From contig NC_042997.1 in NCBI RefSeq assembly GCF_006345805.1, forward strand, positions 156,116,001 through 156,180,000: DNA of 64,000 bases, written 5' to 3'. Origin of the DNA: Octopus sinensis (Eukaryota). A program made the position numbers. This document shows positions 7,700-43,770 of this stretch, piece after piece. Each line of letters starts with the position of its first letter. Within the stretch, counting starts at the first letter, position 1.

Positions 7700-7731
<32 letters not shown>

Positions 7732-8676
7732 GAGGGCATTATACATACATGTCAGGAAGCATTGTATATACATGCCAAACGCTAAGAGGGACAATCAGTC
7801 ATTTCTACCAAAAATATTACTAATCCCACCGAATGCAATTTTTCAAAGTAAGACATTTAAAAATATAGACCTGTATCACAGTGATTTCATACTTACGTAA
7901 TCATCAGCAGGCCTGAATGTATTATAAATAAACAACGACCCTGCCCGCTTAGCCGATCAGCTAACTGATCACATCAACGAAGCACATGGGTGAGTTTATA
8001 TATATTACATCCGGGTAAATGGTAAACTTTTACGAATTGCATTTCGGGAGAGGAAAATTTTTTCGGAATAAAAATTTAGCAATAAGGACAACTACTTAAT
8101 AAGGAAAACTTAACAAGAAATTGTCAGGTAGATAGCGTAAAAACCTCATAAGAGAAAAAATTTCGAAAATAATTATTTCTTATTGAACATATTAATTTAT
8201 ATATAGAGGGCATTATACATACATGTCAGGAGGCATTGTATATACATGCCAAACGCTAAGAGGGACAATCAGTCATTTCTACCAAAAATATTACTAATCC
8301 CACCGAATGCAATTTTTCAAAGTAAGACATTTAAAAATATAGACCTGTATCACAGTGATTTCATACTTACGTAATCATCAGCAGGCCTGAATGTATTATA
8401 AATAAACAACGACCGCCTCGCTTAAGCCGATCAGCTAACTGATCAACATCAACGAAGCACATGGGTGAGTTTATATATATTACATCCGGGTAAATGGTAA
8501 ACTTTTACGAATTGCATTTCGGGAGAGGAAAAGTTTTTTCGGAATAAAAATTTAGCAATTAAGGACAACTACTTAATAAGGAAAACTTAACAAGAAATGT
8601 CAGGTAGATATATATATATATATATATATATACATACATACATACACCACACACACACACACCACACACACACACA

Positions 8677-8724
<48 letters not shown>

Positions 8725-10184
8725 TTTATTTTTTTAAATTTTTATTTTTTAAAATTTTTATCTAGTTTCAGCTCACAAGCTATGGCCATGCTGGGGCACC
8801 GCCATTTGGTGTTGCTACATGATTTTACTTCACGAATGCTTTTTAGCAATTGCCATTTGGTGCATGAGAGAGTTCGATGCAGCTGCCCTCATCTGCACCT
8901 CCTGCCGTGAAGTTGATTCATCTGGGACACCTGACAAGAAGAGATCCAGTTTTATATTAAAGACATCTGCATCCACCCCATGCAGGTCTCTTAGGTTCTT
9001 CGGGAGGATATTGAAGAGCTGTAGGCCTCGGAAGCCCAGGCTATCACAGTATCTTGTCCTACATCTTGATGGCAAATTTGGAGTCCTTGGCACTATGCAG
9101 TGGTGCCCAGTTCTGACATTTATGTAACTCTCGATGCCAAAGTTTGGGACAAGTCCTTCTAGGATCTTCCAGATGTATATTATGGCATATCTTTCTCGCC
9201 TACGCTCTAAGGAATAGAGTCTCAATCTCTTGAGTCTTTCCCAATAGCTTATATGCTGCACAGAGGCTATCTTCTTCGTGTAGCTTCGTTGGATCGCCTC
9301 AAGTTCTGTGATTAACTTGACACTGGATGGTGACCATAGCTGAGAGCAATAGTCAAAGTGGCTTAGGACAAGTGTCCTCCAGAGGACCATCATGTTTTCC
9401 TGGTCTCTTGTTCTAAAGGTTCTAAGAATCCATCCGGTCAGCCGCCTACATTTCATTGCCAATTTAGCAACATGCACATGAAAGGTTGCATCATCACTCA
9501 TGTAGATACCCAGGTCTCGCACTGACTGTGCCTCTGGGATTGCAATCCCTCCAGGTCCAGTGTATTTATTGGGTATTGCATTTAGTTTTGCATGCTGATA
9601 GCATAAAACTTGAAACTTTTCAGCATTGAACTGCATGCTATTCTTTTCAGCCCACTTGTATATTTTGTCCAGCTCAATTGCAGGTGCATAGAGTCTTCAG
9701 GGTTCTGTATTGCATGTGAAACTTTTGTATCTTCTGCATAACTTGTGATCGTGGCTCTCTGCGTGGCTGAGGGCATGTCTGAGAGGGCCATTATGAACAG
9801 TATATATATATATATATTATATATATATATATATTACGGAGATGTACTCGCATAGCAAGTAATTTGATCTGAGATCGTGTGCTGAAACGAAAACAATTGC
9901 AGCGTGGAAGGTGTTTATAAGCCATTTAAGAACACACAAAAGCCGTTCGATTCACTTCAACATTTAAGTTTAATTTGTCAAAATATTTTCGTCGCTAAAA
10001 TCCGCGACCTGTTTACTGACAAAGTCCGTGCTGCAAAGTCCGAGATGCAGCACGGACTTTGTCAGTGAACAGGTCGCGGATTTTAGCGACGAAAATATTT
10101 TGACAAATTAAACTTAAATGTTGAAGTGAATCGAACGGCTTTTGTGTGTTTCTTAAATGGCTTATAAACACCTTCCACGCTGCA

Positions 10185-10225
<41 letters not shown>

Positions 10226-12112
10226 GTTTGTGGGAATATTATTCCAAACTTACAGGGAAAAATTCAATTTAGAAATACTAAATCAAATTTCACAAAATAT
10301 AATATATATATAAGAAAAATCCACCTTTTATCAATTCAAAAGGAAAAATTAAATTACACCATCTAGGAAATTACATATAATAGAAATATTAAATATAAGA
10401 TAAAAAATTTATCTTATTTATTATTTTGCACATTACTTAATCATCGGTATATTTTTTATCTTATATTTAATATTTGTATTATATTTAATTTTCTAGATGG
10501 TGTAATTTAACTTTTCATTTTGAATTGATAAAAGGTGTTTTTTTCTAATTTATATATATATATATATATATATATGCATACAAATATATGAAAGGCTTCT
10601 TTCAGTTTCTGTCAATCAAATCCACTTACAAGGCTTTGGTTGGCCTGAGGTTATAGCAGAACACACTTGCAGTGGGACTGAACCAAGAACCATGTGGTTG
10701 GGAAGCAAGCTTCTTACCACACAACCACACCTGTACCTGTGTCATTATATAAGTTTCATGATTTGAAGATATCTTCATTTATTTAAAAGTCACTTACAAG
10801 ACCACTCCTATTACTGCATTCAAAATGAAATACATTTTCAAAGCGAACAATTTGTTATATTATAAAATGATTATTTTAAAGCCTATGATATAAAATAACT
10901 GTATGCAATTAATCGTGTTTTCTAAATTGAGACAAGAGATTATTTAAGGAAAGTGCGTGACAGAAATATTTCAGGCGTGAAAACAAAGAGATGATTTTGT
11001 TAGTAATTATGAAATGATGGATGTAAAAATTGAGTTCCAAGATCATTGTTATAGAATCATTTAATTGATAAGATAGCTAAAACAATATCTCTGATGTGCA
11101 AACAACTGTCATAAGCTATAAGAATAATAATTTAAATGCTGAGAAAAAGTAAATAACATATTTCTTGACTGAGTGAGCAAGAAATCATTAATGGCATAAA
11201 AGTTGTAATTTTTTTTTTTTTACATTTCCAACTTTTATTATCTTAAAAGTTTTTATTTTCATATTAGATCAAAGCTTTAGAAGAGTGTTTCTTTTTTGTA
11301 TTTTAGTTTAGTTTGTTATGTACTATTTGAACCCAATTTTGGGGAGTGACTTCACACTCACTAATTTTCATTTGATTATTAAATTCATCACCAGACCAGT
11401 CATCATTATCACCACCACCACCACCACCACCACCAAGAATTTTTATCTCTAGTGTTTACTACATTAGTTGAAAGAGAGAATATAACAGTGTAGTAAATTT
11501 CTATTTTCTAGTCTTCATTGGCTTTCAGTTTCTGTTACTTCTTCGTCTAATTCATACAACCTATTCTCATTACACATTCAAACCAATGTAGTCAACTTCC
11601 TTCTATATGACAGTATATATACATAATACACACACATTTTCTTGGCTCACCTGTACTTACTCACATTCTTAGATTCTCTTTAGAAAAATCTCAGCTCATT
11701 TTACTCAGATTTCTAGTTATCTTCTAACTTTGCTGTTCCTGTTTCTCTATAAAAATGCATCATGGTTTTGACACATCCACAGAGATAAAAACAAAACAAA
11801 AAAAAAACAAAACAAAAAACAAAAACAAACAAACATTTCTTTTCAGCAAGCACAGCACTTTGTTAAACACAGCATCATTTTTGACAGTAGCCAACAAATG
11901 CAAACATCGCAATTATTTCACAAATTCAGAGCATTGGGGCCTGCATAACCAAGTTCAGGAACATCTCTAGTAGCTGTCACACAGCTGAAATAATCCCTCA
12001 AGCAACATTCATGGGACAATGTATGTTAATGGACATCTGTTTGTGCTAATATTTACCAATATTATTATTTTAAACCTCACTATTATTATTATTATTATTA
12101 ATATCATCATCA

Positions 12113-41800: not shown

Positions 41801-42099
41801 CATCATCATCATTATCATCATCATCATCATCATTATCATTTTACAGTTCACTTTTCCATACTTGCATGGGTCAGACGGAATTTATTGAGAAAGCTTTTGT
41901 ATGTTAATGCCAGATGTTTATGCTGGTATGTTTATATTAATGGCATGGCTGTGTGGTTTAGAAGCTTGTTTCCCAACCATGTGGTCTTAGGTTCAGTCCC
42001 ACTGCATTGCTTCTGGGCCAAGTGTCTTTTAAAATAGCTCCAGATCAACCAAAGCCTGGTGAGTGGATTTGGTAGACAGAAACTACAAGAAGTTCATCA

Positions 42100-42151
<52 letters not shown>

Positions 42152-43488
42152 TATGTGTGTGACCTCCATCACTACTTGACAACTGGTGTTGGTTCATTTA
42201 TATCCTAGTAGCTTAGTAGTTTGGCAAAAGTGACTGACAGAATAAGTACCAAGCTTAAAAAGTAAGTACTGGAGGTGATTTCTTTGACTAAACCCTTTAA
42301 GGCCCAGCATGGTTGCAGTCCAATGACTAGAACAAGTAAAAGATAACAGATTTCAAACATAAAATCATTTTATTCAATGCTGATGATTATAGTTGGGTCA
42401 AAACAGGCCCAAAGAAAATGTTTAGTGTAAATAACCAGCTAGAAGAAACATGGAAGCAAAATACAAACAGCAAAAAAAAAAAAAAAAAAAAACATGTTCT
42501 AATATAATTACATCTGGAAAGAATATACAAAAGTATTTATCAAAACCATTATGTTTTTTTAGGTGTATAACATATATATCTCTTTATGTGCAAGTGACAG
42601 CAAATATACGTGAGAAAGTGTCCATTTGCAGCCTTGAGCAAAGAAGGTAACTTGAGTGATGAGAGAACTTGGTTTTTTTTTTATGTGTAAATGTGTTTAT
42701 ATGTTCTATACAGTCCCGTGTGACAACCTGTCAAATGAATAAGAAGGATAAAGGAGGTGAGAAAGAGAAAGAAAAAGACAGTTAAAAAATATCTTCATTG
42801 CAGAGCCAAGTAGCATAAAGTTTGCAGGCATAAGATAGACTCTAAAGAAAAATACTCAATATGGTTCCTTTTATAATTCAAAATAGGCTCTGAGACTTCT
42901 TCATGAAATTGATAAACTTACCAAAAGGTAAGCAGTTACACAAGCCTAAAAGCATTACTAAAATAATCATGTTACTTGTTTATAAAAATTGCCTGCTACA
43001 TTTGTACAGATGGCGTTATGTGGTCAGCAAGGGTGATATTATAATTTGAGCAAATAAATCAAGTATAAAATTAGACTGCAAAAGACGATTGACTTGATAA
43101 TATGTATGTGTACTTGTCAGTGGGTGAGTGAGTACTGAGAGCAAGAAACAGACTAAGAGGCGGAGTAACTAAAATAGAAATTGAAAGAGTTAAAATATGG
43201 GTAGTAGACAGAGCAATGCCTGTGTTTGGAAGTTCAGCAGGATTAGCGCCTGTTACACATTTAATATTTAGTATTTCCCATGAGTGCAATAATGCTGGAA
43301 TGAGACAACTGGGTACAGCTTTTTGGATGCTGGCATGGATGACTGGACATAGAACCTGTTTTGGCAACAGTACTTTTTGGCACTGGAGGCACACACATGC
43401 ACACACACACACACACACACATACACACAGAACTATACAGATAGATAGATAGACAGACTTTCAGACAGACAGACAGATAGATAGGTAG

Positions 43489-43568
<80 letters not shown>

Positions 43569-43770
43569 CTCTCTATATATATATATGTATATATAGGGAG
43601 ATTTTACGAAAAAAAAACAAAAGACGAAGACAGGTGATGTACAAAACAAACAGATGTATTAGTATAATGCTCAGGAATAGAAAAGGTCTTTTACGTTTCG
43701 AGCCTACACTCTTCTACAGAAAGGGACACAGAAAAAATAAGGAGAAAAAAAAATTTGTGTTGTGGCTAAC

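What the first reader, a model, noticed from the sequence alone, without database searches (positions are those of the whole stretch)
7721..43770. A multi-family hammerhead-ribozyme retroelement system associated with (TA)n microsatellites
Seen in sequence: about 12 type I hammerhead motifs at 7868, 8342, 9974, 10058, 17374, 19283, 19492, 25166, 31924 (split), 33600, 33904 and 43688, plus relics at 23398 and 27160. They belong to at least 6 sequence families that look unrelated by eye, sit in short non-coding elements mostly bounded by (TA)n, and mostly have tiny palindromic stem IIIs. Established: minimal type I HHRs with palindromic stem III occur in Penelope pseudo-LTRs and metazoan non-LTR retrozymes and cleave as dimers. 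Inference: this genome hosts a dense, diverse retrozyme/PLE population (about one motif per 5 kb here) mobilised by GIY-YIG PLEs, which nick AT-rich DNA.
Basis: partly seen in the sequence, partly recalled or inferred. Interest (0 to 1): 0.88.

Follow-up and report, generated by a model that had tools for sequence, protein, structure and literature searches.

The report
Hammerhead-ribozyme retroelements in TA microsatellites
This stretch of an AT-rich, probably cephalopod, genome holds six families of short non-coding mobile elements that each carry a small self-cleaving hammerhead-type RNA motif and sit in (TA)n repeats, a real but already described kind of element.

Summary
All 12 listed sites have a type I hammerhead layout. 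Six carry the full consensus core: A1, A2, D, E1, F, and E2, which a 323-bp SINE-like insertion splits. Six carry variant or mutated cores: P_L, P_R, C1a, C1b, C2a, C2b. The two "relics" are not supported.

My descriptors were written after seeing the sites. They find 3, 6 and 4 sites against 0.03, 0.2 and 0.02 expected in dinucleotide shuffles. Rfam's hammerhead models find none, and my strictest descriptor passes none of the 12.

Self-BLAST gives six families. Family A is a 1.87-unit tandem of 474 bp between (TA)n tracts. P and E are head-to-head inverted copies. C, D and F are single units.

Ten of 12 motifs have a (TA)n tract starting within 160 nt downstream; 6-9% is expected for random sites.

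Families C and P show the published marks of Penelope-type minimal hammerheads: an extra base after A9, a G10.1-C11.1 pair and a palindromic helix III. A fits a metazoan non-LTR retrozyme.

The two E copies differ by two compensatory pairs in helix I. No Penelope RT or GIY-YIG ORF lies in the window, and cleavage is untested.

Verdict: new members of a known kind.

The parts
7723..8607 (-). Family A array: 1.87 head-to-tail units of 474 bp, each with a hammerhead, lying between (TA)n tracts 7700-7722 and 8608-8632
   Evidence: Self-BLAST 7780-8000 vs 8254-8475 at 97.8%; sequence read on the minus strand; (TA)n list
7867..7914 (-). A1 hammerhead: helix I 7 bp, core CTGATGA, helix II 3 bp with a 4-nt loop and a T.T mismatch at its base, GAAA, 11-nt near-palindromic helix III, cleavage predicted after A at 7874
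   Evidence: Parse; fold and dimer energies (dimer -29.9 vs 2 x -11.1 kcal/mol)
8341..8388 (-). A2 hammerhead, identical to A1; cleavage predicted after 8348. The 474-nt RNA between the two sites (8347 down to 7874) folds far better than shuffles
   Evidence: (MFE -121.8 kcal/mol, z = -7.37, 0 of 100 shuffles as low)
9893..10189 (.). Family P: head-to-head inverted duplication (arms about 148 bp, 96% complementary). It is flanked by (TA)n at 10189-10222 on the right. On the left, 56 unique bp separate it from (TA)n at 9801-9834
10058..10107 (+). P_R minimal hammerhead-like motif: helix I 7 bp, core GTGAACA (C3 to G and G8 to C, a swapped pair), one extra G, helix II 5 bp starting G-C, GAAA, palindrome AATATT, then T
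   Evidence: Parse; its MFE fold is exactly helix I plus helix II
9974..10023 (-). P_L mirror copy with core GTAAACA (G5 also lost); mutated
   Evidence: One search prints both arms; it fails the descriptor
17373..17503 (+). C1a element (motif 17374-17413): core CTGTTGA plus an extra A; the helix III region is disrupted by extra bases; the 3' end runs into (TA)n 17504-17532
43587..43724 (-). C1b element (motif 43688-43723): helix I CTTT/AAAG, core CTGTAGA (A6 to T), extra A, helix II GAG/CTC, GAAA, palindrome ACGT, then A; the 3' end is at (TA)n 43574-43586
19241..19415 (+). C2a element (motif 19283-19317): helix I GTTT/AAAC, core CCGACGA (T4 to C), extra A, helix II GAGC/GCTC, GAAA, ATGT, then T; a short TA run at the 5' end and (TA)n 19416-19457 at the 3' end
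25094..25299 (+). C2b element (motif 25166-25200): same as C2a but with G12 to T and one helix II mismatch; (AT)n 25016-25093 at the 5' end and (TA)n 25300-25325 at the 3' end
19492..19583 (-). D hammerhead, single copy: exact core, 52-nt helix II region closing 2 nt off its base, helix III 3 bp with a 4-nt loop, helix I 2+4 bp around an internal loop; its 3' side reaches the same (TA)n as C2a, 44 nt away
33384..33742 (+). E1 element; hammerhead 33600-33646: helix I GTGC/GCAC, core CTGATGA, helix II 5 pairs with one G.G mismatch, GAAA, 9-nt near-palindromic helix III, then A; (TA)n at 33743
31872..32530 (-). E2 element in inverted orientation to E1. Its hammerhead halves are at 32268-32308 and 31924-31944. 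Helix I is GCAC/GTGC. A later insertion at 31945-32267 (323 bp) has a perfect 15-bp target duplication
31889..33700 (.). Large imperfect inverted repeat (87-93% complementary arm segments) made by E2 and E1 placed head to head, centre near 32955
   Evidence: pairs I1-I4, I6
33904..33967 (-). F hammerhead, single copy: exact core, long helix II with an A.A at its base, 7-nt near-palindromic helix III, helix I 2+5 bp around an internal loop; it lies between (TA)n 33743-33756 and 34202-34250

Best explanation
These are non-autonomous retroelements of the Penelope-like (PLE) / retrozyme kind, carried in a probably octopod genome.

What each family looks like:
- Each family keeps a type I hammerhead about 45-215 nt upstream of the (TA)n tract on its 3' side.
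- Family A is a non-LTR retrozyme: a 474-bp unit in 1.87 tandem copies.
- Families C and P carry PLE-type minimal hammerheads, with one extra base after A9, a G10.1-C11.1 pair and no real helix III.
- E, D and F are single or inverted units with more canonical cores.

Proposed working, all inferred from published systems:
1. Multimeric or read-through transcripts are cut at the T-H site. Two motifs pair through their palindromic helix III to form the active dimer.
2. Unit-length RNA may be ligated into a circle.
3. A PLE reverse transcriptase and GIY-YIG nuclease encoded elsewhere nick (TA)n DNA and copy the RNA by target-primed reverse transcription.
4. Copying more than one unit gives tandems (A). 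Template switching gives head-to-head, 5'-truncated inverted copies (P, E).

Shown here: motif architecture, excess over chance, family structure, tandem and inverted layouts, and (TA)n flanks. Inferred: cleavage, dimer action, circles and the enzyme that moves them.

Several copies are dead: P_L, C1a and C2b are mutated, and E2 is interrupted.
For: Motif excess:
- 3 sites vs 0.03 in 100 shuffles.
- 6 sites vs 0.2 in 60 shuffles.
- 0 in the reversed sequence and 0.28 in 100 block shuffles.
- 4 sites vs 0.02 in 200 shuffles.
- The bare pattern CTGANGA-N6-30-GAAA occurs 13 times vs 4.75 +/- 2.45, and 0 of 100 shuffles reach 13.

Layout:
- Tandem array A lies between (TA)n tracts.
- Its 474-nt unit RNA has a folding z-score of -7.37.
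- P and E are head-to-head inverted copies.
- P has 56 extra bp at one end only.

(TA)n: 10 of 12 motifs have a (TA)>=6 tract starting within 160 nt downstream. Random sites do so 6.1% of the time in the window and 8.6% in the span; binomial P is about 4e-11 and 1e-9.

Copy comparison in E: E1 and E2 are 86.2% identical (43 mismatches in 312 ungapped columns). In the 47-nt hammerhead they differ at 6 positions. Four make two compensatory helix I pairs, one turns a G.G into G.T in helix II, one is in loop 2, and none touches the core.

Copy comparison in C: C1 and C2 differ by a C-G to G-C exchange at the outer helix I pair.

Literature:
- PMC4209133 (full text parts 1-2 read) lists for PLE minimal hammerheads a nucleotide between 9 and 10.1, a conserved G10.1-C11.1, palindromic 15.2-16.2, helix I of 4-5 bp, a U3-A8 core covariation, and pairs on opposite strands 100-700 bp apart.
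- PMC7229834 (passages) describes tandem type I hammerhead repeats as non-LTR retrozymes, and an axolotl motif with a U.U at the base of helix II, as in family A.
- PMC8557442 (passages) reports (TA)n as a preferred PLE target, inverted 5'-truncated copies and a 30-40-bp tail at one end.
- bioRxiv 10.64898/2026.07.22.740005 (abstract and section 14) derives animal retrozymes from PLE pLTRs.
Against: - Rfam hammerhead models match 0 of the 8 sites covered by targeted scans, and nothing in the whole window.
- My strictest descriptor passes none of the 12.
- The passing descriptors are post hoc, and the 160-nt cut-off for (TA)n was chosen after seeing the distances.
- Six of 12 motifs depart from the consensus core at positions generally held essential: T4 to C in C2, A6 to T in C1, and the 3/8 swap in P. 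That these positions are essential is recalled textbook knowledge, not tested here.
- Covariation is thin. Family C has one compensatory pair among 4 sequences, and 391 of 500 shuffles reach that number. Family E rests on two copies. A1 and A2 are identical in the motif.
- D and F are single copies.
- Only A is tandem.
- No PLE RT or GIY-YIG domain was found in 19 ORFs scanned with Pfam. The RT fragments present are ordinary RVT_1 / LINE-like.
- PMC4209133 reports low in-vitro activity for such minimal motifs.
Confidence: 0.75

Rival explanations
1. The elements are SINE-like passengers of LINE reverse transcriptases, and (TA)n is their own 3' tail rather than the target. The hammerhead-like motif is then a passenger or has lost its role.
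For: LINE-type RT fragments lie nearby: 8830-9696 (best named relative is an Argonauta hians hypothetical protein at 61% identity, with PF00078 on the relatives), 14126-14713 (RVT_1) and 62241-62795 (zf-RVT). A LINE-style insertion with a 15-bp target duplication did occur inside E2. Every family's 3' side ends in or near (TA)n, as a tail would.
Against: A and C2b have (TA)n directly at both ends, and C2a has a short TA run at its 5' end. That fits insertion into a pre-existing tract. More-than-unit tandem (A) and head-to-head inverted copies (P, E) are the published PLE signature (PMC8557442). No target duplications other than (TA)n itself were seen.
Confidence: 0.1
2. The variant-core motifs of families C and P are not ribozymes. 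They keep the hammerhead shape for another role, such as a recognition fold for the reverse transcriptase, or they are simply decayed, and only A, E, D and F ever cleaved.
For: Both copies of each C subfamily share the same core change: T4 to C in C2 and A6 to T in C1. The subfamily founders therefore already had it. P has C3 to G with G8 to C. PMC8557442 notes that PLE clades without canonical hammerheads proliferate well.
Against: The rest of the architecture is kept exactly in register in C1b, C2a and P_R. A swapped 3/8 pair keeps the pairing, and PMC4209133 reports a natural U3-A8 covariation. PMC3884650 mentions an active G3-C8 variant, as data not shown (passage).
Confidence: 0.12
3. The motifs are chance matches in AT-rich, hairpin-rich repeats.
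For: Rfam finds no hammerhead. The strict descriptor passes none of the 12. P and the 27160 site are long palindromes in which helices come for free across the arms.
Against: Shuffle, reversed-sequence and local-block controls give 0-0.3 expected against 3-6 observed. The helices are within one arm, not across arms. Independent families share the same position relative to (TA)n.
Confidence: 0.03

Closest known systems
Metazoan non-LTR retrozymes (Cervera and de la Pena 2020, PMC7229834; passages read)
   Same: Family A is a low-GC short tandem repeat with a type I hammerhead in each unit. The unit RNA is strongly self-paired. Helix II has a U.U at its base, as in axolotl HHR_Amex2. Helix III is small and palindromic.
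   Different: The unit is 474 bp, above the roughly 170-400 nt quoted for invertebrate circles, and only 1.87 units are present here. Expression and circularity are unknown. Families C, D, E, F and P are not tandem in this window.
[quoted passage not shown]
   Same: C and P have helix I of 4-7 bp, one unpaired base between A9 and helix II, G10.1-C11.1, palindromic 15.2-16.2 with no loop, occurrence as single motifs or opposite-strand pairs, and many diverged families in one genome.
   Different: No flanked RT/GIY-YIG ORF is present here. The cores differ from the published consensus: T4 to C, A6 to T, and G3-C8 where the paper reports U3-A8. Helix II is 3-5 bp rather than the 7-8 bp of the Schistosoma families.
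EN+ PLE insertion architecture and (TA)n targeting (Craig et al. 2021, PMC8557442; passages read)
   Same: (TA)n at the insertion ends, partial tandems, an inverted 5'-truncated copy forming an inverted repeat, and extra bases at one end only (56 bp at P).
   Different: That paper ties (TA)n bias mainly to Naiads, which lack canonical hammerheads, and tentatively to Neptune. It says cephalopod Naiads are old remnants. Which PLE clade, if any, moved these elements is unknown.
Hammerhead satellites of newts, schistosomes and cave crickets (as cited in PMC7229834; my recall for details)
   Same: Type I hammerheads in tandem repeats that act as dimers through a weak helix III.
   Different: Those are long arrays of high copy number and match Rfam Hammerhead_1. 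The motifs here do not match it.

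Membership tests
Hammerhead ribozyme, type I | Conserved core CUGANGA ... GAAA ... UH | tested here: inconclusive
   Met at 6 of 12 sites: A1, A2, D, E1, F, and E2 (split). Not met at 6 of 12: C2a and C2b have T4 to C, with G12 to T as well in C2b. C1a and C1b have A6 to T. P_R has the 3/8 swap, and P_L has that plus G5 to A.
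Hammerhead ribozyme, type I | Three helices around the core with helix I open | tested here: met
   Helices are in register at A1, A2, E1, P_R, C2a and C1b and at D and F with internal loops. They are disrupted in C1a, and in E2 by the insertion.
Hammerhead ribozyme, type I | Match to curated covariance models (Rfam hammerhead families) | tested here: not met
   No hammerhead match at gathering score or at E<=10 in targeted scans covering 8 of 12 sites. C1a, C1b, C2b and E2 had no targeted scan.
Hammerhead ribozyme, type I | Compensatory base changes in the helices across copies | tested here: inconclusive
   E1/E2 have two compensatory helix I pairs and one repaired helix II pair, from two copies only. 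Family C has one compensatory pair, not above shuffles. A1 and A2 are identical.
Hammerhead ribozyme, type I | Site-specific self-cleavage | not testable with these tools
   Needs transcription of monomer and dimer constructs.
PLE-type minimal hammerhead | [quoted passage not shown] | tested here: met
   Present in all 6 C and P motifs (A in C, G in P). Absent in A, D, E and F, which are therefore of the canonical-like kind.
PLE-type minimal hammerhead | G10.1-C11.1 pair and palindromic 15.2-16.2 | tested here: met
   Helix II of C and P opens with G-C. Helix III is ACGT or ATGT in C and AATATT in P. Helix III is lost in C1a.
PLE-type minimal hammerhead | Location in the flanking repeats of an element that encodes RT plus GIY-YIG nuclease | tested here: not met
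   No such ORF among 19 ORFs of 80 aa or more scanned with Pfam. The literature says most genomic motifs are solo.
Metazoan non-LTR retrozyme | Short head-to-tail repeats, each unit with a type I hammerhead, low GC | tested here: met
   Family A only: 474-bp period, 1.87 units, 97.8% identity. GC is 0.36-0.37 in the two 2-kb windows covering it. Not met by the other five families in this window.
Metazoan non-LTR retrozyme | Expression as self-paired circular RNA | not testable with these tools
   Only the predicted fold is available (z = -7.37).
EN+ Penelope-like insertion | Microsatellite (TA)n target, partial tandems, inverted 5'-truncated copies | tested here: met

The most novel reading that the evidence does not exclude
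Two readings remain open.

First, the core variants that whole subfamilies share could be naturally active hammerheads working as dimers. These are G3-C8 in P, C4 in C2 and U6 in C1, each with the extra base after A9. That would widen the accepted catalytic core.

Second, hammerhead retroelements could be a main source or sink of (TA)n microsatellites in this genome. Eleven of the 21 (TA)>=6 tracts in or at the edge of the span touch one of these elements (my count).
Probability: 0.15. Interest if true: 0.6.

Novelty: new member of a known kind. Interest (0 to 1): 0.35.

Why it matters
The window shows in small compass what the literature describes genome by genome. Canonical-like retrozyme hammerheads and Penelope-type minimal hammerheads lie side by side. 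Both are tied to (TA)n, and tandem, inverted and solo insertion forms are all visible.

For a cephalopod-like genome this does not seem to be in print. My search for hammerhead + octopus + ribozyme found 8 papers and listed 7. The listing showed no title on cephalopod hammerhead elements. I opened passages of two:
- The giant squid genome paper only counts 235 Rfam Hammerhead_1 loci.
- PMC8557442 calls cephalopod Naiads old remnants.

The motifs here escape Rfam, so such counts would miss them. Annotation pipelines would label these loci as unknown repeats or false miRNA hairpins, as the sub-threshold rows suggest.

The shared core variants give concrete test cases for how much of the hammerhead core is really fixed.

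Tried and rejected
Rfam scans gave no hammerhead. I take this as a limit of the curated models for minimal motifs, and it is reported as evidence against.

A strict descriptor with perfect helix II closure found only an AT-rich chance site at 28794 and none of the 12. I then relaxed it.

I tried three alternative registers for the C-family core: GAAGAG read as G5-G10.1, a 3-nt insertion in the core, and the reading used here. I rejected the first two because helix I then no longer abuts the core. Only the reading CTGTAGA/CCGACGA plus an extra A keeps all helices in register in both subfamilies.

Relic 23398 has the boxes but no helix I or II. Relic 27160 is a 110-nt palindrome next to (TA)n with neither G8 nor GAAA in place. 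Both were rejected as hammerheads.

Other pattern hits at 1794, 22979, 28794, 35750, 37153, 42380 and 46639 fail the helix tests.

Formal covariation counting on family C was not significant.

ARAGORN finds no tRNA in the window. The tRNA-like look of the insert in E2 is therefore by eye only.

The Pfam search for a PLE ORF found none in 19 ORFs.

Other copies of these families, and any PLE genes elsewhere in this genome, stayed unchecked.

The supplementary alignments and tables of PMC4209133, PMC7229834 and PMC8557442 may already list cephalopod motifs or elements, and I could not see them.

Lunse et al. 2017 on dimeric PLE hammerheads appeared only as a cited title in reference lists and was not read.

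No complex prediction, structure or atlas job was relevant.

Full report
**What the window is.** The window is AT-rich (GC 0.29-0.42 in 2-kb steps). It is full of microsatellites (70 TRF rows) and of transposon debris:
- LINE-type reverse-transcriptase fragments and a mariner-type transposase.
- One RT fragment (8830-9696, minus strand) whose best named relative is a hypothetical protein of the octopod Argonauta hians at 61% identity.

I therefore take the source to be a cephalopod, probably an octopod. This is an inference from one protein table.

**Checking the observation.** I printed all 14 listed positions and parsed them against the hammerhead plan. In a type I motif the order is: 5' strand of helix I, CUGANGA, the helix II hairpin, GAAA, helix III, U-H, 3' strand of helix I. 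Rfam gave no hammerhead match anywhere:
- at gathering score;
- in four short stretches covering 8 of the 12 sites.

The bare pattern CTGANGA-N6-30-GAAA occurs 13 times against 4.75 +/- 2.45 in shuffles, and 0 of 100 shuffles reach 13.

I then wrote four descriptors of my own:

| Descriptor | Sites found | Control |
|---|---|---|
| Strictest: helix II perfect from its base | none of the 12; only an AT-rich chance site at 28794 | none run |
| One helix II mismatch allowed, palindrome-like helix III | 3 (A1, A2, E1) | 0.03 in 100 shuffles |
| As published for Penelope minimal hammerheads: one core mismatch or a swapped 3/8 pair, one optional base after A9 | 6 (A1, A2, P_R, C2a, E1, C1b) | 0.2 in 60 shuffles; 0 in the reversed sequence; 0.28 in 100 local block shuffles |
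| Exact core, internal loop allowed in helix I, small offset at the base of helix II | 4 (A1, A2, D, F) | 0.02 in 200 shuffles |

The three passing descriptors were shaped after seeing the sites, so the ratios overstate the evidence. An excess of ten-fold or more in every control is still hard to ascribe to chance.

P_L, C1a and C2b pass nothing and are visibly mutated copies of P_R, C1b and C2a. The two relics fail.

**Families and anatomy.** Self-BLAST pairs A1 with A2, the two arms of P, C1a with C1b, C2a with C2b, and E1 with E2. D and F have no second copy. C1 and C2 align with each other outside the motif as well. That gives six families.

- **Family A** (minus strand) is a partial tandem of a 474-bp unit, 1.87 units long, from 8607 down to 7723. 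(TA)n lies directly at both ends. The array ends inside a TA-rich stretch of the unit itself. The RNA between the two predicted cleavage sites folds with z = -7.37.
- **Family P** is a 96% head-to-head inverted duplication of about 148 bp per arm. (TA)n abuts the right end. On the left, 56 extra unique bases come before (TA)n.
- **Family E** is a pair of diverged copies set head to head. Together they form an inverted repeat of about 1.8 kb. E2 later received a 323-bp SINE-like insertion with a perfect 15-bp target duplication that cuts the motif between GAAA and helix I.
- **Family C2** copies are about 175-205 bp. C2b has (TA)n at both ends; C2a has a short TA run at the 5' end and (TA)n at the 3' end.
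- **C2a and D**, and likewise **E1 and F**, converge tail to tail on one (TA)n tract.

**The (TA)n link.** The window has 26 tracts of (TA)>=6, 711 bp in all. Ten of the 12 motifs have such a tract starting within 160 nt downstream on their own strand. Random sites do so in 6.1% of trials in the window and 8.6% in the span. The two exceptions are the upstream unit of the A tandem (626 nt) and E2 (214 nt). The 160-nt cut-off was chosen after seeing the distances. By my count, 11 of the 21 tracts in or at the edge of the span touch one of these elements.

**Evidence from copy comparison.** E1 and E2 are 86.2% identical (43 mismatches in 312 ungapped columns). Inside the 47-nt hammerhead they differ at six positions:
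- four form two compensatory helix I pairs (GTGC/GCAC against GCAC/GTGC);
- one changes a G.G mismatch of helix II to G.T;
- one lies in loop 2;
- none touches the core or helix III.

This is the best sign of selection on the fold, but it rests on two copies. In family C the outer helix I pair is C-G in C1 and G-C in C2. The formal count is no better than shuffles: one pair with a change on both sides, a number that 391 of 500 shuffles reach. Pairing is 85% in register against 19-43% when slid. A1 and A2 are identical in the motif and so say nothing.

**What kind of hammerheads.** A, E, D and F have the full consensus core. Their weak points are a T.T (A) or A.A (F) at the base of helix II, a G.G in E1, and a 2-nt offset in D. 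PMC7229834 describes an axolotl retrozyme hammerhead with just such a U.U at the base of helix II.

C and P have 4-7 bp in helix I, one unpaired base after A9, a G-C opening helix II, and a loopless palindrome in place of helix III. The Discussion of PMC4209133 lists the extra base, the G10.1-C11.1 pair and the palindrome among the marks that emerged from its searches of Penelope minimal hammerheads; its Results describe the short helix I. The same paper reports a natural U3-A8 core covariation and motif pairs on opposite strands 100-700 bp apart.

The cores of C and P nevertheless depart from consensus. C2 has C at position 4, C1 has T at position 6, and P has G3 with C8. The first two are at positions I recall as essential. 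The swap in P keeps the 3-8 pair. An active G3-C8 variant is mentioned as unpublished data in PMC3884650.

**How it most likely works.** From the published systems I infer the following. Transcripts spanning two motifs are cut at the T-H site after the two motifs pair through their palindromic helix III. The unit RNA may be circularised. A Penelope-like RT/GIY-YIG enzyme encoded elsewhere nicks (TA)n and copies the RNA. This yields more-than-unit tandems, head-to-head truncated copies and one-sided tails, as described for PLEs (PMC8557442). It also matches a recent preprint that derives animal retrozymes from PLE pLTRs. Nothing of this mechanism is shown here beyond the genomic footprints. No PLE ORF was found in 19 ORFs scanned.

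**Rivals.**
- LINE-driven SINE-like elements with (TA)n tails remain possible, but they fit the two-sided (TA)n flanks and the tandem and inverted forms poorly.
- The C and P motifs may be non-catalytic.
- Pure chance is very unlikely.

**Verdict.** It overstates in three ways: twelve hammerheads (six carry the consensus core, several are dead), the two relics, and the retrozyme label, which only family A earns. This is a new set of members of a known class, of modest interest. Its most interesting loose ends are the subfamily-wide core variants and the share of (TA)n tracts occupied by these elements.

Noticed in passing
31945-32267: A 323-bp insertion with a perfect 15-bp target-site duplication lies inside E2. 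By eye one end looks tRNA-like (box A/B-like), but ARAGORN calls no tRNA. A 77% similar fragment lies at 34251-34360.
   Followed up: partly
27103-27212: A 110-nt hairpin palindrome (92.7% self-complementary) abuts (TA)n at 27211-27223. The layout resembles family P, but there is no recognisable hammerhead core. It produces sub-threshold miRNA-like Rfam rows.
   Followed up: partly
61547-61738: A long near-perfect hairpin gives the best sub-threshold Rfam rows of the window (MIR841 99 bits against a gathering score of 200; MIR8675 on both strands). It is probably a foldback or MITE-like repeat, not a miRNA gene.
   Followed up: no
20469-21639: Mariner-type transposase remnant (Transposase_1, E 2.8e-25, plus an HTH domain), broken into several frames.
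   Followed up: no
8830-9696, 14126-14713, 2573-3405, 62241-62795: LINE-type reverse-transcriptase fragments (RVT_1, zf-RVT, DUF6451). The first lies just upstream of the family A array on the same strand, separated from it by a compound (TG)n/(TA)n tract.
   Followed up: partly
35771-36106 and 37956-38294: Two minus-strand ORFs about 2.2 kb apart share a near-identical peptide stretch. This suggests a local duplication or two copies of an unclassified repeat. ORFs overlapping it on the plus strand (35703-35954, 37984-38226) have no Pfam match.
   Followed up: no
56987-57228: A 123-bp unit repeated twice (84% matches). It looks like a SINE-related tandem.
   Followed up: no
43489-43594 / 43771-43856, 60987-61501, 62986-63142: Long (GATA)n/(TATC)n arrays, in opposite orientation on the two sides of C1b. 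Tetranucleotide arrays are as common here as (TA)n.
   Followed up: no
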